DNA from: a virus
Length of the DNA stretch: 64,000 nucleotides
Virus record (IMG/VR): IMGVR_UViG_3300034816_000006
Location: 12,196-76,195 of that record
Reading direction: 5' to 3' (one strand)
In this document: in pieces, positions 8,245 to 18,228 of the stretch
Numbering within the stretch: the first letter of the stretch is position 1
How the letters are laid out: each line of letters begins with the position of its first letter
Translations under genes and position numbers: made by a program
Notes under the pieces: model-generated
What the model was told of the DNA's origin: nothing
The model's input: only the letters and a program-made list of their open reading frames with translations
Database searches by the model: none

Positions 8245-8445
8245 CCGGGAGACAGCCGGGAGACAGCGGCCATCAGCGTCTGCAACCGGCCGCGACTGTT
8301 CAGATCCTGGGTCGGCTACGCGATGTTCTTGTTCGTCTTGCTGTGTCATGTTCTCGACATCCCTTGATGTACGCATCGTCTGCAACGTTGGCAACGGCAT
8401 ATCACCCTCGACGGGGCCCTGAATTCGGGAGACGGACGGGAGACG
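8245..8445. other. Probable attP: paired integrase arm-type sites
   Basis: CGGGAGAC direct-repeat pairs with 11-bp period at 8246/8257 and 8426/8437, flanking ~160 bp at the 3' end of int. Confidence 0.6.
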
Positions 8446-9511
8446 CTGCCATATCGCTCGGCATCCGGAACTTCACCCGGCCGTAGTCCTTCTCGAAGGT
8501 GTCCGGCCTGAGGTGCGCGTAGGTCCGCTCGGTGATGGTCACGCTCGAGTGCCCAAGGATACGCGAAAGGTCGAAGATATCGCCACCGTCGATCAGCCAC
8601 AGCGACGCGAAGCTGTGGCGCAGGTCGTGGACCCGCATGCGCTCGTCGAGTTCCGCATGCTCGACCGCGCGCTTGAACGGCTTCCATACCGACGGCTGCG
8701 ACAGCGGCCTACCCGGTCGCCCGCCGGGCCACAGCAGCACGTTGCGGCCGCGCTGCAGACGCATCTCGCGAAGCACTGGAAGCAGAGCATCGAGGATCGG
8801 GACCCACCGGAGCTTGCCGGACTTCGTCATTCCGCGGCGCCCTCGGTGTACCGCGATCAGCCGGTGCTCGAGATCGATGTCGTCCCAGTGCAGGTGGAGC
8901 GCCTCGTCGAGGCGCATGCCAGTGCCGACCAGCACGGCGACGATTGTGCGGATGTTCGGCGTGCATTCGGAGAGCAGCCGCGTCACCTGCTCCAGCGACT
9001 GCAGCCATGGAAACACCTTGGCTGGTCGCACGAGCATCTTCACGCGGTGGCACGGGTTGCCGGCGATCCACTGCTGATCGACGAACCATGTGAACGCGCT
9101 GGACAGCGTGCCGACAAGGGCGTTAACGAACGATGCAGACACGGTTGCGCTGATCCTGTCGCGCCAGCGGACCACCTCGAGCTTGCGGATCTTGACGATC
9201 GGCACCGAGCCGAATTCAACCGCGAGATGGTTTCGCACGCGGCTCTCGTACTCGTCCCATGATCGGGATCCGGCTTCGCGTAGCGCCTTGATCCATGCCT
9301 CGGCAGCGACCGAGAACGTGCGCTCGATGTCGACGTCAGACGGCAGTTCGCCGCTCACGATCTTCCGCTGCGTCGTGCGGAAGTCCTCGTCTATCGCGAT
9401 GGCCTCGCGCTTCGATGCGTACGAGCCGACGTAGACCTTCTTGTCGCGACCAGCGCGACGACCATAGACCTGGTAGCGGACGCCTTCGACCCTGCGAACC
9501 GTCTTGATCAT
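8402..9511 (-). CDS. int: Tyrosine integrase
   Basis: Catalytic motifs TGMRLDE, TKSGK, HDLRHSFAS, LGHSS and TYAH. Confidence 0.95.
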   Translation of the reverse strand: MIKTVRRVEGVRYQVYGRRAGRDKKVYVGSYASKREAIAIDEDFRTTQRKIVSGELPSDVDIERTFSVAAEAWIKALREAGSRSWDEYESRVRNHLAVEFGSVPIVKIRKLEVVRWRDRISATVSASFVNALVGTLSSAFTWFVDQQWIAGNPCHRVKMLVRPAKVFPWLQSLEQVTRLLSECTPNIRTIVAVLVGTGMRLDEALHLHWDDIDLEHRLIAVHRGRRGMTKSGKLRWVPILDALLPVLREMRLQRGRNVLLWPGGRPGRPLSQPSVWKPFKRAVEHAELDERMRVHDLRHSFASLWLIDGGDIFDLSRILGHSSVTITERTYAHLRPDTFEKDYGRVKFRMPSDMAASPVRLPNSGPRRG

Positions 9512-11783: not shown

Positions 11784-12006
11784 CGCTTAGCCTTCCCTCG
11801 CTTCGCTGGCTTCTGGTCCGCCAACCATGCCGCTGCATCGAACAGCGCTTGCCCGATGCGCTCGGCGTCGGACGAGGTGAGCGGATTTCCGGTAGCGTTC
11901 GCGAGATCCTCGGGCAAGACGAGCCAGGCGCCGTCGAGGTCGACGACGATCTTCATCTTGCGGCCATCTTGCAACTCGACGGACCAGGAGCGATCGCGTG
12001 AGTCGC

Positions 12007-12492
12007 TCATCGCTTCAGCTCCGACAGCCGCGCCGCGACCATCATCGTCTCGGGCAATGCGGTTGCGCATGTCCCACAGGACTGCAGGTGCTCGCGGAAC
12101 GCCTCGGCGCGGTCTGTGGGTAGTTCGCCGTCAGCGAAGGCGACGAGGTCGGAACAAGTGGTGGATGCCGGTCGCGCGTAGGACCGTACCGCATCGACCG
12201 CAGATTCCAGGCAGTCGTTCCAGCCCTCGCAATACGCGCTCGAGATGCCCTGCTGCTTGTAGCCTTCGACTGTCCACTCGCGTTCTCCGACGTCCGCGAC
12301 CTTGCCCGCGATTGACTCGCGCGTCTTCGTCTCCATCGCCTCGAGCGCGGTGGCCATCTTGGATGCGAACCCGGCGCTCAGGTCCGCGATGGTGGACTCG
12401 AGCGAGGCGATGCGCTCCTCGAGACCGGCGGAGCGGAGGCGCTCGGCGCGGAGTTGATCGGCGAACTTGTCGCACACGTCCTGGTAGCTCAT
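12007..12492 (-). CDS. Coiled-coil protein with C-terminal zf-HC2 (anti-sigma ZAS) zinc finger
   Basis: CSDLVAFADGELPTDRAEAFREHLQSCGTC matches the HxxxCxxC ZAS motif with DGEL. Confidence 0.7.
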   Translation of the reverse strand: MSYQDVCDKFADQLRAERLRSAGLEERIASLESTIADLSAGFASKMATALEAMETKTRESIAGKVADVGEREWTVEGYKQQGISSAYCEGWNDCLESAVDAVRSYARPASTTCSDLVAFADGELPTDRAEAFREHLQSCGTCATALPETMMVAARLSELKR

Positions 12493-13082
12493 GGCGCACT
12501 CCACGGCTGCGGCTGCATGTCGGCGGGGATGCGGTGCTTGCCGCGCGCAAGCGGGTGCTTCGGGTGTCCGGCCTTCGTCGTGCCGAGGTTGTGCGTCTTG
12601 ATGCCAGCGGTCCGCAGCATGCCGAGCACGGCGCGATCGCGGCTGTCCAGCGCACCATCGTTGCCCCACGCCGTTACGACCACCGTCGCCATCGAGCACG
12701 CGAGCATGATCGCCTGATTGTTGATGACGTCGTCGCCGCGCTCGCCGACCGCGCGCTTCTTGAGATCGGTCGGGTACGGCGACCGGAACGCGTGCTCGTT
12801 CACGACCCACGTGATGTCGTGGCCCCAGCGACGCGTGAACTTCACGCATTCGGTGACCGTCGGGTCTGGTTTGAATGCGTCTGCGTCGCTGGGGTTCAAC
12901 ATCAGAAAGCAGGCGATCTCGAGTGTTGGCGGCGACCATGGCGGGCCGAGCATCTGGAAGATGACGTCGCCTCCGATCTCGCGGGCGCGGTCGCTGACCA
13001 GGCGCAGCAGATGATAGCGCATCGTCATGTCATCGCTGAACTGCGCGAATCCTGCACGATCGTCGCTCCACTGATCAATCAT
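12489..13082 (-). CDS. DUF1643 family protein
   Basis: FLMLNPSDAD...DPT, VVTAWG and HPKHPL motifs. Confidence 0.85.
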   Translation of the reverse strand: MIDQWSDDRAGFAQFSDDMTMRYHLLRLVSDRAREIGGDVIFQMLGPPWSPPTLEIACFLMLNPSDADAFKPDPTVTECVKFTRRWGHDITWVVNEHAFRSPYPTDLKKRAVGERGDDVINNQAIMLACSMATVVVTAWGNDGALDSRDRAVLGMLRTAGIKTHNLGTTKAGHPKHPLARGKHRIPADMQPQPWSAP

Positions 13083-13098
13083 GTCTTGCTCCTCATCG

Positions 13099-13237
13099 TG
13101 GAGTCCGCCCGGCTCGAACGGGCATCACGCCTCGCGGCGTACGTTCTAGCAGCCGTCGCCACGCGTGCGGTGCTGTTGTCTCGAACCGTCGGAGCTGCAG
13201 GCATCCGACGAGCACTGTCCAATTGTGCTAGGACCCC
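13099..13237 (-). ncRNA. tRNA-like RNA (139 nt) with Ala identity, remodelled anticodon arm and large insert
   Basis: Acceptor GGGGTCC/GGACTCC-A; D arm GCAC-AATTGGACA-GTGC; T arm GCCCG-TTCGAGC-CGGGC; fills the intergenic gap between two CDSs. Confidence 0.75.
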
Positions 13238-13243
13238 GGACAT

Positions 13244-14413
13244 CTAGAACGGACTACTCTCCGCCGACCCGTTGGTCAGCTGCTTGGGTTCATCGGTCTC
13301 GGGTGCCACCACGTGCAATGTCGGCTCGTATTCCTCGATCGTCACGGTCTCCTTGCGAGCCATCTTGCCGAGCCGCTCGACCTCACCGAACACCGCTTTC
13401 TTGGTCGCTGCGAACTGGCCTCGCTTCACGAGCGGCTTAACGACGCGCTCGAACTGCGCCTGTGACGCAACCATCTCCACGACCTTGTCCGCTACGTCGC
13501 GGCCGAGTTCCGGCATCGCAGCGACGACGGCATGCACCGTTGGGCCGTCGTACTCGCGGTCGCCCAGTTTCGCATGTGGGCCGAACATGCGGCCGTTGCG
13601 AAGGGGAATTGGGCGCTCGGCCGCTCGAGCGTACAGCGCGGCGCTCAGTCGCGTCTGCACCGTCTTGATCCGCTGCAACAGGTCGTAGGCGTCGGCTGCA
13701 TCCTCGTCGTTACCGAACGGGATCATTGACTCGACGCGCATCGCGATCGCGCCACCGCCGGCCTCCTCGGCGAGACGCCTCTGCTCGGGACACGAGATGA
13801 ACGCGTGGCAATACTTGCAGTGCTTGCCCGTGACCAGTTCGCGCGAGGTCGATGTCATCATCTCGCGTAACCGCGCCGCGTGGACATCGAGGTCGAACAC
13901 ACACAACGTCGCCACGTCGGCCGGTTTCCACGACGCGCCGAGGTAGACGATTGCAACGGTGACCTCGTCACGACCCGAGGCGCGGGCAACCGCAAGTGCT
14001 CCGGTGGCAAGCTGCGGATTCAGCGCGGCCGACGTCACGTCTTCAAAACCCTTGTAGTCGACGACCAGCACGCGGTTCTCGCCGTATACGATGAGGTCGA
14101 TCGTCATCGGGATCTCGAACGGCCGCAGCCCGGAGTAGTCACGCCAGGCGATGTGGCCCAACGCGCGGGCCGTGTCGTCGCTGACGTCGTAGGCCATTGC
14201 GCATTCCGCGGCCATGACATCGCCCGGCTCCAGAAGCTTGCGAACCTGCCACGGCAGATCCTCGTGCGCACCAAGAACCGCGGCTGCCTCCGCATCCCCG
14301 TGTCGGTCGTTGCCAGCTTCGGCGTAGTCCGATCGGTAGTCGTGCTGCTCAAGGTGCGCCGAACCTGGGCAGGCGAGCACGCGCTCGACGGAGGATGCGG
14401 AGGGGCGGTTCAT
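13244..14413 (-). CDS. PD-(D/E)XK exonuclease (Cas4/RecB-like, DUF2800-type) of the recombination module
   Basis: SASS..R..ACPGS, IDLIV, VVDYK, QL and GKHCKYC..C motifs. Confidence 0.85.
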   Translation of the reverse strand: MNRPSASSVERVLACPGSAHLEQHDYRSDYAEAGNDRHGDAEAAAVLGAHEDLPWQVRKLLEPGDVMAAECAMAYDVSDDTARALGHIAWRDYSGLRPFEIPMTIDLIVYGENRVLVVDYKGFEDVTSAALNPQLATGALAVARASGRDEVTVAIVYLGASWKPADVATLCVFDLDVHAARLREMMTSTSRELVTGKHCKYCHAFISCPEQRRLAEEAGGGAIAMRVESMIPFGNDEDAADAYDLLQRIKTVQTRLSAALYARAAERPIPLRNGRMFGPHAKLGDREYDGPTVHAVVAAMPELGRDVADKVVEMVASQAQFERVVKPLVKRGQFAATKKAVFGEVERLGKMARKETVTIEEYEPTLHVVAPETDEPKQLTNGSAESSPF

Positions 14414-14837
14414 GGCTCAAACACCTGGAGTTCGTAGTCGTCATCGACGACACGAAAGAACTCCGACGCACGCGACCCGCTCAGCTTCTTGTTGAGCGCC
14501 TCGCACATGATGTCGGCCCAGCGCTGGCTGGTAATCTCGCTCGCCACCAGTGTGTCGTCGTGGCCTGGACCCTCACGGTTGAAGTTGTCAACGCACACGA
14601 TCTTCACGGTCTTAGTTCCGTTTCCTCGATGCGCGCCTTGGGGCCATCGTCGTGCGAGTCAACGTAGCGAACCCAGCCGACCGAGCGACCGTAGTCGCGC
14701 TCCGTCCAGACGTAGCCATAGTCGGCGTAGAGCGCCTTGAATTCCTCGACTTGCCGATCGGCACCTTCGCGTGTCGAGTGCACGGTGATCATGTCGTTGA
14801 CATGACGGTCGTGGCAGATGACGACGTAGACCTTCAC
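14410..14837 (-). CDS. Two small hypothetical proteins (14410-14607, 14604-14837)
   Basis: Coupled ORFs between the exonuclease and the SSAP. Confidence 0.6.
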
Positions 14838-15691
14838 GCTGTCTCACCCGTGCCTGTGTCGGACGAGTCGACGGAGCTCGTTGGCGTCGTCGCTGCGACC
14901 GACGACGAATCGCCTGATGTAGGGCGTTTCTTGATCTCCGCGACCCGTGCCTTGTACTTGGCATTGATCGCCTCGTAGGCCGGGTGACCAGGGCGCAGGC
15001 CGCGCTTCGCGAAGCGACCGGCGATCTCCCTGCATGACTCGATCGTCTGAGCGTTTTCGAGCTGACCGATTTCCTCGTAGTCGGACGCGCTGAACGGCGG
15101 CGGCGTCGGCTGGGCATCGACAAACTCGGCGTCGATGGCGTCGACATGAACAGGACGCGGAGAATCGTCGCGCTCGCCGACCTCGTCGGCTGTGAACACC
15201 CCCGCAAGGATGTCCGAGTACACGTCGCGAGCGAGCTCCGACTTCGCGCGAGACGCCAGCATCGCCCGCGGGAACGTGCGCCAGTTGTCCTTCTGGTGCA
15301 GCGCGGCGACCTTGGCCATCTCGATGGTCCAGGTACACTTCTGCTCGGGTTCGCCGCGTCGCTTCGTCACATAGGTGACGCTCTTGTCTGTTCCCTCGCC
15401 GAGTCGACGGAAGTACTCGGCCTTGCCGCTGCCGAGTACAACCGCAACCATCGCATCCGCGCTCATCACGGGTTTGCCGTTGATGACCGAGAACGAGCGC
15501 AGCGAAGCCATCGGCGCGAGGCCCAGCTCCTGGCCCGCCATGATCTGCATCATGACCTCGGGAACCTTGTTGCGGAGCGCCTCGGGGAGCAACCCGGACT
15601 TGGCGATGCGCTCGGACAGTGTCACGACCTCATCGAGCGTACGGGGGGCGATGATCGCGGGCTGGCGAACCAGTGCGGTCTCGTCGCTCAT
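14834..15691 (-). CDS. RecT/Red-beta-like single-strand annealing protein
   Basis: GQELGLAPMASLRSFSVINGKP, W..FPRAML..RA motifs; adjacent to exonuclease and SSB. Confidence 0.8.
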   Translation of the reverse strand: MSDETALVRQPAIIAPRTLDEVVTLSERIAKSGLLPEALRNKVPEVMMQIMAGQELGLAPMASLRSFSVINGKPVMSADAMVAVVLGSGKAEYFRRLGEGTDKSVTYVTKRRGEPEQKCTWTIEMAKVAALHQKDNWRTFPRAMLASRAKSELARDVYSDILAGVFTADEVGERDDSPRPVHVDAIDAEFVDAQPTPPPFSASDYEEIGQLENAQTIESCREIAGRFAKRGLRPGHPAYEAINAKYKARVAEIKKRPTSGDSSSVAATTPTSSVDSSDTGTGETA

Positions 15692-16444: not shown

Positions 16445-18228
16445 TCACGGCTCGCCCCCACGAGAAGTCGTCCCGGCTGCCGGTCTGGAGTCCGGCATAG
16501 GTGATCCACCCGTCGCGCTAGTCAGAGGGTAACGCGACGGCACAACCGGGACGGAAAACCGCTTGGGGCGCCGCCGCTCACGCACCTCGTCGACGATCAT
16601 CTCAATGGCGAGCTCGATCAGCTTCATGGCCAGAGCGCCAATCGCCATCAGGCCGATGACGACGAACGTCACTTGGTGGCCCCCAGCACCGCGTTGCAGC
16701 GCGCGATCTGCGCGGCGATGAACTGTGCACGCTCGACGCTTAGGCCGTTGATGCCGAGGCTGGCGAGCTCGTCGCGATACGCCGCGACCAGCGACAGCGC
16801 CTCGGCTGAGTGCGACGCAGCCAGAAACCGCTCGACCATGATGTCCGCGATCTCGTGCACGACTGCCGCGGTCGTGGTCTCCCCGGGACCGTTGGCCTCG
16901 ATGGCCCGGCGTGCTGCTGACTCGAGGCGAGCGGCATCGCTGGCAGCCTTCGATGCCCGTAGCTGCTGCAGCTCCAGCAACGCGCTCCGCACCGGAGGTG
17001 GCACGTCGGTCAGCCAGGCCTTGAGGTCGTCGTCGGACAGTCGCTCGTTCATGCCTCACCTCGATCCTTCGACATCTCGGCGCGCTCGGCCTCGAAGTCA
17101 TCGGCAATCCTGCGCTGCGCATCGGCAAGCTCCGCGTAGTACGAAGCGGTGAGCATGGCCGCCGCGAGTGTTGACACGGCGCGGACATCCGGTCCGATGG
17201 TGCCGAATTCGTCGCTATAGAGCTTGCGGGCCTCGGCGAGCGCAGCGGCCGCGCGATGAATGATCTCGTTGTTCATGGCTTCCTCGTGGGCTTCGTATCG
17301 GCCATCGACGACGGAGACGGGATGTCGAGCACTTCCGCCAGTGGCACACCGTCGATGCTCGGCACAGGCTCGAGCACGGCGAGCATGGCGCCCGTGGCCT
17401 CGTGGAGCCAGCGCAAGGACGCTTGGTCCAGGTCGACTAGGTCGTGCGTGACATAATGGTGCGCCTCCGGATCGAGCACTTGATCGGCATGCACCGTCTC
17501 CCAAGCCAACAGCATTCCCACGCTCGGTGAACTCTCCAGGCGCAGGCGTTCACCTGGCGCTCCGGTCGGAAAGATCCTGACGAAGCGCCTCACGACTCGA
17601 CCTCGGGATCGAAGCGCGAGTCATGCGGCGTGCCGTGGTCGGCGCTGCGCGTGACGGCGCACGTCGTCTCGTGGTCATCCTCGTCGCGAATGTCGGGTTC
17701 GGCGGCTCGCTGGGCCTCGTAGGCAGCCGCGGAGATGTCGGTTTGGTCAAGGTCGACAACTATGCCGTCCCCGAACATCTCCTGTGCCGCGACCTGCGTG
17801 GGCTCCTGACCGCAGCACGGCTGATTCGCCATCTGCGCCAGCAGCGCCTCGGCCGCGGCGTCGTTCTCGGCCGTCTCGGCGAGTTGCTCAGCGACCGGGC
17901 GCGAGATGTCCCAGTCCCAGCCGTCGCTGTGGTCGTTGGCGATCTCGGCCGCTAGCCAGCCCCCGTGCCAGGCGGCGAGGTCGACGAATGGCGAGGCCTC
18001 GTCGCCATCGAAGCCAGCGTCTTCCGCGTTGGTCATCCGCGCGAATCCGTCGGCCAGCAGTTCGGCGGCGATCGCCGCGGCCGCGATCTCGTGCTCGACC
18101 GCGAGCAAGGCGTCATTGGCGGGGCCGAGCGACAGCGTCTCGCCGCACGCCTGGCACTTCGCGTGCCTGACCGCTGGATGATGCCAGGCAGCTGTCTCGT
18201 GCTGGCATTGAGTCTTGCGCTTCGTCAT
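16445..18228 (-). CDS. Cluster of hypothetical early genes (16445-16672 TM, 16669-17052, 17049-17276, 17273-17593, 17590-18228)
   Basis: Coupled minus-strand ORFs. Confidence 0.55.

What the first reader, a model, noticed from the sequence alone, without database searches (positions are those of the whole stretch)
13099..13237. tRNA-like RNA with alanine identity, an intact tertiary core, a rebuilt anticodon arm and a ~63-nt insert
Seen on the minus strand: acceptor 5'-GGGGTCC / GGACTCC-A-3' (G1-C72, G2-C71, G3-U70, A73), U8-A9, a 4-bp D stem with loop AATTGGACA (A14, G18G19), T arm GCCCG-TTCGAGC-CGGGC, and a compatible A15-U48 Levitt pair. The anticodon arm is a 7-bp stem CGTCGGA/TCCGACG with loop TGCCTGCAGC, where UGC (Ala) is central but C replaces U33. 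It is followed by a long GTTC..AGCA-CCG/CGG-TGCT..GAAC stem and a TACGCC-GCGA-GGCGTG hairpin where the variable arm should be. No CCA is encoded. Established: G3-U70 plus A73 are the AlaRS determinants of tRNA-Ala and tmRNA. Inference: a chargeable but probably non-decoding tRNA mimic in the early transcript. It could be a decoy for anticodon nucleases or tRNA-targeting toxins, a sensor mimic, or an RNase P/Z processing module.
Basis: partly seen in the sequence, partly recalled or inferred. Interest (0 to 1): 0.88.

Follow-up and report, generated by a model that had tools for sequence, protein, structure and literature searches.

The report
Expanded alanine tRNA look-alike in phage
A temperate soil phage carries a 139-base gene that is an alanine tRNA with a lengthened anticodon stem and a roughly 60-base extra hairpin, so it probably cannot read codons; it belongs with the long-unexplained tRNA-like stable RNAs of phages T5 and T4.

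Summary
On the minus strand at 13237..13099 there is a complete tRNA frame: a 7-bp acceptor stem, U8/A9, a 4-bp D stem with an A14..G18G19..A21 loop, and a G53-C61 T arm with loop TTCGAGC. It carries four of the five bacterial alanine identity elements (A73, G2-C71, G3.U70, G4-C69). UGC sits in the middle of a loop on an anticodon stem that is 3 bp plus a bulge too long. A 63-nt segment replaces the variable loop.

Standard ARAGORN and Rfam find nothing. ARAGORN in intron mode calls only this site in the 76-kb phage. A canonical-frame descriptor hits it once and never in 400 shuffled genomes. When both expansions are removed in silico, ARAGORN calls a standard tRNA-Ala(UGC).

The overlapping 54-codon ORF looks non-coding. 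The element recurs at about 96% identity in two other soil and rhizosphere studies, where the flanks are much less alike. It is absent beside 56-81% relatives of both neighbouring genes.

It is most likely a selected, non-decoding tRNA-shaped RNA cut out by tRNA-processing enzymes, similar in kind to T5 RNA1 and T4 species 1. Its function is unknown, and the decoy idea is untested.

This scan has already reported the same kind of tRNA-chassis RNA in other phages.

The parts
13099..13237 (-). Whole tRNA-shaped element, 139 nt (element position i = 13238 - window coordinate)
   Evidence: Sequence. ARAGORN -i calls 13237..13098. The canonical-frame descriptor hits it uniquely. CM R1 self-hit.
13231..13237 (-). 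Acceptor stem 5' strand GGGGUCC (G1 G2 G3 G4 ...)
   Evidence: It pairs 7/7 with 13100-13106, including G3.U70.
13212..13228 (-). D arm: stem GCAC/GUGC, loop AAUUGGACA (A14, A15, G18 G19, A21; A rather than G at position 20)
13187..13210 (-). Extended anticodon-like arm: 8 bp plus a bulged U around the loop CCUGCAG (UGC central, C33, A37)
   Evidence: Deleting 3 bp plus the bulge in silico gives ARAGORN tRNA-Ala(tgc).
13173..13186 (-). 14-nt linker GUUCGAGACAACAG (contains a second GUUCGAG motif)
13126..13172 (-). Long irregular 17-bp hairpin (element 66-112) with a 10-nt apical loop, in the place of a variable arm
   Evidence: Frame-constrained fold, and its core also appears in the unconstrained MFE. 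The three natural substitutions that could be placed (element 84, 91, 94) fall in its apical loop or closing pair.
13107..13123 (-). T arm GCCCG-UUCGAGC-CGGGC (G53-C61, U54 U55 C56 A58)
13099..13106 (-). Acceptor 3' strand GGACUCC plus discriminator A73; no CCA is encoded (the next bases are CGA)
13080..13098 (-). 16-nt spacer with the Shine-Dalgarno GAGGAG (13094-13089) and the ATG of the DUF1643 gene (13082-13080). It is part of the block conserved in other metagenomes (13070-13237).
13244..14413 (-). Upstream gene: PD-(D/E)XK / DUF2800 exonuclease. Its stop codon lies 6 nt before G1.
12489..13082 (-). Downstream gene: DUF1643 protein
13079..13243 (-). 54-codon ORF laid over the element; judged not to be a gene
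   Evidence: GC1/2/3 are 0.56/0.71/0.64, against about 0.65/0.47/0.82 in real genes. Codon log-odds are -0.29 bits/codon, within the off-frame range. No protein relative was found among 5.8 billion proteins.

Best explanation
The element is a real gene of a temperate soil phage for a tRNA-shaped RNA descended from tRNA-Ala(UGC). The upper half of the tRNA is kept intact: the acceptor stem, the T arm and the D-loop/T-loop elbow. The decoding half has been rebuilt. The anticodon stem is 3 bp plus a bulge longer than normal, and a 14-nt linker plus a 47-nt hairpin stand where the 5-nt variable loop should be.

The following steps are inferred, not shown. The element is transcribed within the leftward early operon (RecT, exonuclease, element, DUF1643, integrase). 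RNase P cuts at G1 (13237), and an RNase Z-type cut falls after A73 (13099). Host CCA-adding enzyme then extends the 3' end. AlaRS reads only the acceptor stem, so it can probably charge the RNA. With this anticodon arm the RNA is unlikely to decode on the ribosome, so it would act as a stable tRNA look-alike. The same two cuts would also separate the exonuclease message from the DUF1643 message, leaving DUF1643 with a 16-nt leader and its own Shine-Dalgarno sequence.

The design matches phage T5 RNA1. What the released RNA does in the cell is unknown.
For: 1. The tRNA frame is statistically real.
2. Four of the five bacterial Ala determinants are present: A73, G2-C71, G3.U70 and G4-C69, a set taken from PMC9976931. 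UGC with A37 sits at the centre of the loop.
3. Removing element positions 54-112 in silico gives a standard ARAGORN tRNA call. Also removing 3 bp plus the bulge gives tRNA-Ala(tgc) of 73-74 nt. The element is therefore tRNA-Ala plus two discrete expansions.
4. Every helix is fully paired: 7 bp in the acceptor, 4 in the D stem, 8 in the anticodon arm, 17 in the long hairpin and 5 in the T stem. The frame-constrained fold is within 1 kcal/mol of the MFE.
5. The overlapping ORF is not coding.
6. Contigs from two other studies carry 13070-13228 (6 differences) and 13070-13237 (about 7 differences), which is about 96% identity. In one of them, likeness to the window stops exactly at G1 (13237). 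Neither has an 80% match over the 1.2-kb exonuclease gene. The part of the DUF1643 gene that is held is about 81% identical and has an indel.
7. The three substitutions that could be placed lie in the apical loop or closing pair of the long hairpin.
8. T5 RNA1 (144 nt, annotated 'tRNA-like stable RNA with unknown functions') and T4 rnaC (139 nt) are likewise called by ARAGORN only in intron mode.
Against: No RNA data exist for this phage, so the transcript, its ends, CCA addition and charging are all inferred.

Comparative support is thin. It rests on three short near-identical contigs, and only 3 of about 13 differences could be placed. There is no covariation. The higher conservation could also reflect recent exchange of a small mosaic block rather than purifying selection.

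The element is missing at the same position in relatives of the exonuclease (56-69% identity; L140-L143) and of DUF1643 (57-81% identity; L059, L060, L002). No other copy was found in 632 kb of related loci, in four complete related phage genomes, in 401 Myxococcota genomes, or by five exact or degenerate pattern scans, which returned only two ordinary tRNA-Asn genes.

G20, a minor Ala determinant, is A here. The MFE z-score is only -1.8. Two of the three placed substitutions would be synonymous in the 54-codon ORF, which is not significant (p about 0.16).
Confidence: 0.6

Rival explanations
1. The element is a decaying tRNA-Ala pseudogene. A once-functional phage tRNA-Ala(UGC) was disabled by an insertion in the variable loop and a small duplication in the anticodon stem, and it is now a neutral remnant in an intergenic gap.
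For: The element is not found beside even an 81%-identical DUF1643 relative or 56-69% exonuclease relatives. It is single-copy, with no tRNA cluster and no other tRNA in the phage. U33 and G20 have been lost.
Against: All five helices are perfectly paired. The two expansions are themselves clean helices rather than random insertions. The element is about 96% identical in two independent studies, whereas the adjacent coding DNA is at most 81% alike or not alignable, which is the reverse of what a neutral remnant should show. The substitutions that could be placed avoid the stems.
Confidence: 0.15
2. The element is only a cis-acting 'tRNA punctuation' signal. Its tRNA frame attracts RNase P and RNase Z to split the early polycistronic mRNA between the exonuclease and DUF1643 genes, or it gives the downstream mRNA a protective structured 5' end. 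The excised RNA itself has no role.
For: The element fills the intergenic gap exactly. G1 lies 6 nt after the exonuclease stop codon, and A73 lies 16 nt before the DUF1643 ATG, which has a well-spaced GAGGAG. No promoter-like or convincing terminator-like site is nearby. The block conserved in other metagenomes includes the Shine-Dalgarno sequence and the start codon (13070-13237).
Against: A processing signal needs only the acceptor/T minihelix. This does not explain why a full alanine identity set, a D arm, the UGC-centred arm and a 17-bp hairpin are kept. Relatives express the same two genes without it.
Confidence: 0.12
3. The element is a working, decoding tRNA-Ala of unusual architecture. 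It would be a class-II-like tRNA with a giant variable arm, supplementing GCN decoding for the phage.
For: The Ala identity set is matched by a UGC triplet and A37 in a possible 7-nt loop. The acceptor/T arm needed for EF-Tu binding is intact.
Against: The anticodon stem is 8 bp plus a bulge instead of 5 bp, and C33 replaces the near-universal U33. Standard ARAGORN and the Rfam tRNA model reject the element. A variable region of 63 nt far exceeds the arms of about 20 nt in class II tRNAs (from general knowledge).
Confidence: 0.05
4. The stretch is a small protein gene: the 54-codon ORF at 13243..13079. The ORF starts right after the exonuclease stop (TAGATG) and ends in an ATGA overlap with the DUF1643 start. 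On this reading the tRNA resemblance is incidental.
For: The stop-start junctions at both ends are tight, which is typical of phage operons. Two of the three placed natural substitutions are synonymous in this frame (from, worked out by hand).
Against: The GC profile by codon position is inverted. The codon log-odds equal the lowest of 63 true-gene windows and lie within the off-frame range. No relative was found among 5.8 billion predicted proteins. At 65% GC an open 54-codon frame is expected by chance about 25% of the time. The tRNA frame is far beyond chance.
Confidence: 0.05

Closest known systems
Phage T5 RNA1 (NC_005859 30501-30644, misc_RNA 'tRNA-like stable RNA with unknown functions'); also T5 RNA2 and RNA3
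   Same: It is phage-encoded and about 140 nt long (144 against 139). It has a complete tRNA frame (acceptor, D arm, T arm) with extra folded RNA in the decoding half. ARAGORN calls it only in intron mode. Its function is unknown.
   Different: T5 RNA1 has a leucine-type body and lies inside the large tRNA cluster of a lytic phage. The element here has an alanine identity set, keeps an anticodon-like arm, and carries its main insert in the variable region. It stands alone in the recombination/early operon of a temperate phage that has no tRNA genes. There is no sequence similarity.
Phage T4 species 1 RNA (rnaC, 139 nt) and species 2 RNA (rnaD, 119 nt), NC_000866 70908-71171
   Same: These are small stable phage RNAs. 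rnaC has a canonical T arm and an acceptor-like closing helix, and it is the same length as the element here. They have had no known function since the 1970s (the date is from memory).
   Different: T4 rnaC lacks a canonical D arm and an alanine identity set. It sits at the end of the T4 tRNA cluster. No sequence similarity was seen.
Canonical bacterial/phage tRNA-Ala(UGC)
   Same: The acceptor stem starts GGGG.../...CUCC-A, with G3.U70, G2-C71, G4-C69 and A73. The D and T arms are standard. UGC and A37 are present. After both expansions are removed in silico, ARAGORN names the element tRNA-Ala(tgc).
   Different: The element is not detected by standard ARAGORN or by the Rfam tRNA model. The anticodon stem is 8 bp plus a bulge. 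It has C33 and A20. The variable region is 63 nt. No CCA is encoded.
tmRNA tRNA-like domain
   Same: It has alanine identity (G3.U70, A73), acceptor and T arms, and is non-decoding.
   Different: The element has a true D stem, which tmRNA lacks. ARAGORN's tmRNA search and the Rfam models find nothing. There is no credible tag reading frame: the only candidate stop (UAG at element 90-92) is changed by the A91>C variant seen in three runs. At 139 nt it is far shorter than the roughly 350 nt of tmRNA.
YrlA-type bacterial/phage Y RNAs (Rfam RF02553)
   Same: Both are tRNA mimics with a D-loop/T-loop elbow that sit beside extra helices, and some Y RNAs are phage-borne.
   Different: There is no Rfam hit, and no Ro/TROVE gene in the phage. 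In Y RNAs the 5'/3' ends form the Ro-binding stem and the acceptor-like helix is closed (from memory). Here the ends form the acceptor stem, as in a tRNA.

Membership tests
Canonical tRNA (ARAGORN / Rfam RF00005) | Recognised by standard tRNA detectors | tested here: not met
   ARAGORN in default mode finds 0 genes. Rfam gives no tRNA hit at the gathering threshold or at E<=10.
Canonical tRNA (ARAGORN / Rfam RF00005) | 7-bp acceptor stem, U8, 4-bp D stem with G18G19, and a 5-bp T stem with a TTCRANY loop | tested here: met
   The site is unique in the genome, with 0 hits in 400 shuffled genomes.
Canonical tRNA (ARAGORN / Rfam RF00005) | 5-bp anticodon stem, 7-nt loop with U33, and a variable region of 4-24 nt | tested here: not met
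   The stem is 8 bp plus a bulge, C33 replaces U33, and 63 nt lie between the anticodon arm and the T stem.
Alanine-accepting RNAs (AlaRS substrates) | Bacterial identity set: A73, G2-C71, G3.U70 and G4-C69 (major) and G20 (minor), as tabulated in PMC9976931 | tested here: met
   The four acceptor-end elements are present; position 20 is A.
Alanine-accepting RNAs (AlaRS substrates) | Actually aminoacylated with alanine after CCA addition | not testable with these tools
   This needs in vitro charging or acid-gel Northern analysis.
tmRNA | Detected by tmRNA models; tag-peptide reading frame with a resume codon and a stop; no D stem | tested here: not met
   ARAGORN -m is negative and Rfam is negative. 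A D stem is present. The only candidate stop is lost in natural variants.
YrlA / Y RNA | Match to RF02553 and association with a Ro60/Rsr (TROVE) protein | tested here: not met
   There is no Rfam hit and no TROVE domain in the 76-kb phage. A host-encoded Ro protein could not be checked because the host is unknown.
Phage tRNA-like stable RNAs (T5 RNA1/RNA2, T4 species 1); a descriptive class, not a sequence family | Phage-encoded RNA of about 120-145 nt that keeps the acceptor and T arm of a tRNA and carries extra folded RNA in the decoding half | tested here: met
   The design is the same. T5 RNA1 and T4 rnaC behave the same way in ARAGORN -i as the element does.
Phage tRNA-like stable RNAs (T5 RNA1/RNA2, T4 species 1) | Accumulates as a discrete stable RNA in infected cells | not testable with these tools
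   No RNA run holds the stretch.
Phage tRNA-like stable RNAs (T5 RNA1/RNA2, T4 species 1) | Located within a phage tRNA gene cluster | tested here: not met
   The 76-kb genome has no tRNA gene. The element lies between an exonuclease gene and a DUF1643 gene.

The most novel reading that the evidence does not exclude
The RNA is matured, CCA-tailed and charged with alanine by the host AlaRS but cannot enter decoding. It would then work in trans in one of two ways. It could be a tRNA-Ala(UGC) decoy or sponge for a host tRNA-directed defence or toxin, such as an anticodon-loop nuclease or another elbow- or acceptor-binding factor. Alternatively it could donate alanine to a non-ribosomal reaction. 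In either case the long hairpin would serve as the handle for a partner protein. This would give a first function to the T4/T5-type tRNA-like stable RNAs.
Probability: 0.15. Interest if true: 0.8.

Novelty: new variant of a known kind. Interest (0 to 1): 0.5.

Why it matters
tRNA-shaped stable RNAs have been known in phages T4 and T5 for decades, and none has an assigned function. This example is unusually easy to read. It is clearly tRNA-Ala plus two discrete expansions, and it keeps the identity set for AlaRS, a synthetase that ignores the anticodon. That gives a direct bench test: is the RNA cut by RNase P, CCA-tailed and alanylated, and does a G3-C70 change abolish charging? It also shows that such RNAs occur singly in the early operon of a temperate phage that has no tRNA genes, and are not confined to the tRNA clusters of large lytic phages. 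Together with the other cases this scan has reported, it suggests a widespread and unexplained class of phage RNAs.

Tried and rejected
RNA family and tRNA searches
- Rfam at the gathering threshold over the whole window, and at E<=10 over 13000-13350, gave nothing relevant.
- ARAGORN in standard, tmRNA and mitochondrial modes found nothing.

Searches for homologues
- blastn against 50,697 phage records, using the 1.2-kb region and the element alone, gave no real match.
- Five pattern scans gave no homologue. Four exact scans (three of IMG/VR, one of GTDB genomes) found nothing. One degenerate IMG/VR scan found only two ordinary tRNA-Asn genes that share the D-arm sequence.
- The single-sequence covariance model R1 was run over 143 loci and over four complete related phages plus one Myxococcaceae MAG. 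Nothing scored below E=0.3.
- blastn of the element against 401 Myxococcota genomes gave only short chance matches that are not tRNAs.
- Synteny route: DUF1643 relatives and exonuclease relatives were fetched, and none carries the element.
- A close-relative protein scan for both neighbouring genes in IMG/VR found nothing.
- The 54-residue ORF was searched as a protein and gave no hits.

Unavailable or limited tools
- No RNA holder is listed among the public runs.
- Read laying reports only part of the differences, so most variant positions could not be mapped onto the structure.

Other checks
- No repeat of the insert occurs elsewhere in the phage.
- No promoter-like site was found, and the terminator-like sites were at about the shuffle level.
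- No TROVE/Ro or RtcB gene is present in the phage.
- No tRNA-derived attP fragment was found.
- The tmRNA reading was rejected: there is no tag frame and a D stem is present.
- The spliced-tRNA reading was rejected. ARAGORN's 'tRNA-Val(gac) plus 45-nt intron' needs a mismatched anticodon stem, and no single excision yields a canonical tRNA.

Full report
**Setting.** The window is part of a 76,195-bp IMG/VR virus record with 65% GC and 97% estimated completeness. The source is a rhizosphere metagenome. The minus strand from about 22.2 kb down to 8.4 kb is one co-directional block. It includes a RecT-like annealing protein (14834-15691), a PD-(D/E)XK/DUF2800 exonuclease (13244-14413), a DUF1643 protein (12489-13082), an HTH protein and a tyrosine integrase (8402-9511). 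By analogy with lambda's pL arm this is an early recombination/lysogeny operon; that is an inference. The element fills the 161-nt gap between the exonuclease stop codon and the DUF1643 start.

**Observation.** Read on the minus strand, positions 13237..13099 give the following features in order:
- acceptor 5' strand GGGGUCC, then U8 and A9;
- D stem GCAC/GUGC with loop AAUUGGACA;
- U26;
- the arm CGUCGGA-U-G / CCUGCAG / C-UCCGACG;
- 63 nt of extra sequence;
- T arm GCCCG-UUCGAGC-CGGGC;
- acceptor 3' strand GGACUCC and discriminator A73, followed by CGA with no CCA.

Standard ARAGORN and Rfam, at the gathering threshold and at E<=10, report nothing.

**Is it more than chance?** With introns allowed, ARAGORN calls exactly this site (13237..13098) and nothing else in the 76-kb genome. 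Markov-shuffled genomes give 0.067 calls each. I also built a descriptor from textbook tRNA features only: a 7-bp acceptor stem, U8, R9, a 4-bp D stem, an A..GG..A D loop, a 5-bp T stem with G53-C61, and a TTCRANY loop abutting the acceptor strand. It hits this site once and never in 400 shuffled genomes, which amounts to 61 Mb scanned. In 632 kb of related loci it otherwise picks only three ordinary tRNAs. The descriptor was written after seeing the element, but it contains only canonical features.

**What it derives from.** The bacterial alanine identity set is A73, G2-C71, G3.U70 and G4-C69, plus the minor determinant G20 (PMC9976931). The element has the first four; position 20 is A. The arm after the D stem can close to a 7-nt loop CCUGCAG, with UGC at positions 34-36 and A37 but C33.

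I tested the ancestry in silico. Deleting element positions 54-112 makes standard ARAGORN call a tRNA. Also deleting 3 bp plus the bulged U from the arm makes it call tRNA-Ala(tgc) of 73-74 nt. The element is therefore tRNA-Ala(UGC) with two discrete expansions: a longer anticodon stem and an insertion of about 60 nt in the variable region.

**Fold of the insert.** When only the acceptor, D and T helices are enforced, the best fold scores -62.4 kcal/mol, against an unconstrained MFE of -63.3. It consists of the 8-bp-plus-bulge arm, a 14-nt linker, and one irregular 17-bp hairpin (element 66-112) with a 10-nt loop. The core of that hairpin also appears in the unconstrained MFE. I therefore prefer the single long hairpin, but only comparative data can settle it.

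**Coding or not.** A 54-codon ORF (13243..13079) covers the element exactly, with a TAGATG junction upstream and an ATGA overlap downstream. Its GC content by codon position is 0.56/0.71/0.64, against about 0.65/0.47/0.82 for the phage's genes. Its codon log-odds are -0.29 bits per codon. That equals the lowest of 63 true-gene windows (median +0.37) and lies within the off-frame range (median -0.54). No relative was found among 5.8 billion predicted proteins. At this GC content an open 54-codon frame is expected about one time in four. I rate the coding reading at about 5%.

**Conservation.** Logan contigs of three runs were laid on 12000-15000.
- Run X1 may be the source sample. It also holds a minor variant covering 13132-13291 at about 91% identity.
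- Run X2 is a soil study from 2022. It has a 166-nt contig covering 13070-13228 with 6 differences.
- Run X3 is a rhizosphere study from 2017. It has contigs covering 13070-13194 (5 differences) and 13189-13237 (2 differences). The second contig runs on for 102 nt that do not match the window, so likeness stops exactly at G1.

Neither X2 nor X3 has a credible 80% match over the 1.2-kb exonuclease gene. The piece of the DUF1643 gene held by X2 is about 81% identical and has an indel. The 168-bp block (element plus Shine-Dalgarno sequence and start codon) is thus the best-conserved part of the 3-kb stretch. That is the reverse of what a neutral remnant should show.

The three differences the tool printed (window 13154, 13147, 13144, which are element G84>A, A91>C, A94>G) fall in the apical loop or closing pair of the long hairpin.

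There are caveats. The contigs are short and low-depth. Most differences could not be placed. Recent exchange of a small mosaic module would give the same picture.

**Distribution.** The element is not a fixed partner of either neighbouring gene.
- DUF1643 relatives at 81%, 65% and 57% identity (L059, L060, L002) have coding sequence upstream instead.
- Exonuclease relatives at 56-69% identity (L140-L143) are followed by other genes.
- A single-sequence covariance model found nothing in 143 loci, four complete related phage genomes or a Myxococcaceae MAG.
- blastn against 401 Myxococcota genomes gave only short chance hits.
- Five exact or degenerate pattern scans gave no homologue.

The element therefore seems confined to a narrow lineage. 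The host may be a myxobacterium: one exonuclease homologue is named from a Kofleriaceae MAG, and the only GTDB hit is a Myxococcaceae MAG. This is only a hint.

**Mechanism.** The sequence directly shows three things. The parts of a tRNA read by RNase P, RNase Z, the CCA-adding enzyme, AlaRS and EF-Tu are intact; these are the acceptor/T minihelix and the D/T elbow. The part read by the ribosome and mRNA is not canonical. The element sits inside an operon with no promoter-like site nearby.

From this I infer the following. The element is co-transcribed with the early genes and cut out at 13237 and 13099, then CCA-tailed and probably alanylated. It persists as a non-decoding tRNA look-alike. 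The same cuts separate the exonuclease mRNA from the DUF1643 mRNA, which keeps a 16-nt leader with GAGGAG.

I cannot say what the free RNA does. The decoy and sponge ideas are open (about 15%), and a pure processing-signal role is a rival (about 12%).

**Comparison with known RNAs.** Earlier notes of this scan pointed me to the stable RNAs of T4 and T5, and I checked the records myself.
- NC_005859 annotates RNA1 (144 nt) and RNA2 as 'tRNA-like stable RNA with unknown functions'.
- NC_000866 annotates rnaC (139 nt) and rnaD as small stable RNAs.
- T5 RNA1 has a full Leu-type tRNA frame with an inserted domain and, like this element, is called by ARAGORN only in intron mode. T4 rnaC behaves likewise.

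The element is therefore a new variant of a known but unexplained kind. It differs in having an alanine body and a retained but lengthened anticodon arm, with its main insert in the variable region. It is also a solitary gene in the early operon of a temperate phage that has no tRNA genes.

It is not a tmRNA. It has a D stem, no tag frame and no model hit, and its only candidate stop is lost in natural variants. It is not a YrlA-type Y RNA either. There is no RF02553 hit, no TROVE gene, and the ends form the acceptor stem.

**Verdict.** Novelty is moderate. The same kind of RNA has already been reported by this scan on other phage DNA. I score interest at 0.5. It is a clean example of an old unsolved class with a biochemically testable identity, but it is supported by one narrow lineage and has no expression data.

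Noticed in passing
L010:2036-2177 (+) and L010:2232-2320 (+) (IMGVR_UViG_3300042922_000982, 157 kb): Two more non-canonical tRNA-shaped genes lie directly upstream of that phage's DUF1643 homologue. The first is a 142-nt RNA with a Leu-type body, like T5 RNA1, and ARAGORN calls it only in intron mode. The second is an 89-nt 'tRNA-Ala(tgc)' with a long variable arm and G33, which the Rfam tRNA model does not recognise at E<=1. Each is preceded by the motif GCRTGCTACACTGG and a GC-rich hairpin, so they look like separate transcription units.
   Followed up: partly
window 12007-12939 (-): A 310-codon ORF overlaps the DUF1643 gene in another frame. It carries a zf-HC2 (anti-sigma-type) motif near its C-terminus (residues 265-292). 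The real gene probably starts near 12492, after the DUF1643 stop codon.
   Followed up: no
protein P0017 (JGI contig of 76,075 bp): This DUF1643 relative (67% identity) is 321 residues long and has an extra N-terminal PF28055 domain. It is a fused form that the window's gene does not have.
   Followed up: no
window 12909-13018 (DUF1643 codons ~22-58): In run X2 a contig replaces 108 nt of the window with 84 other letters. The N-terminal third of DUF1643 is therefore an indel-prone variable segment, which matches the gap-rich columns of alignments A1 and A2.
   Followed up: no
window 1-64000 and the whole 76-kb record: The temperate phage has a tyrosine integrase (8402-9511) but no tRNA gene. 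A scan for T arms with a perfect 5-bp stem found no recognisable tRNA-derived attP fragment. The attachment site and the host remain unknown.
   Followed up: partly
window 16445-17188 (-) versus 16669-17052 (-): The longest ORF here has an off-frame GC profile (0.72/0.67/0.61). The nested ORF 16669-17052 has a normal profile (0.71/0.50/0.84). Gene calls based on the longest ORF are unreliable in this 65% GC genome.
   Followed up: no
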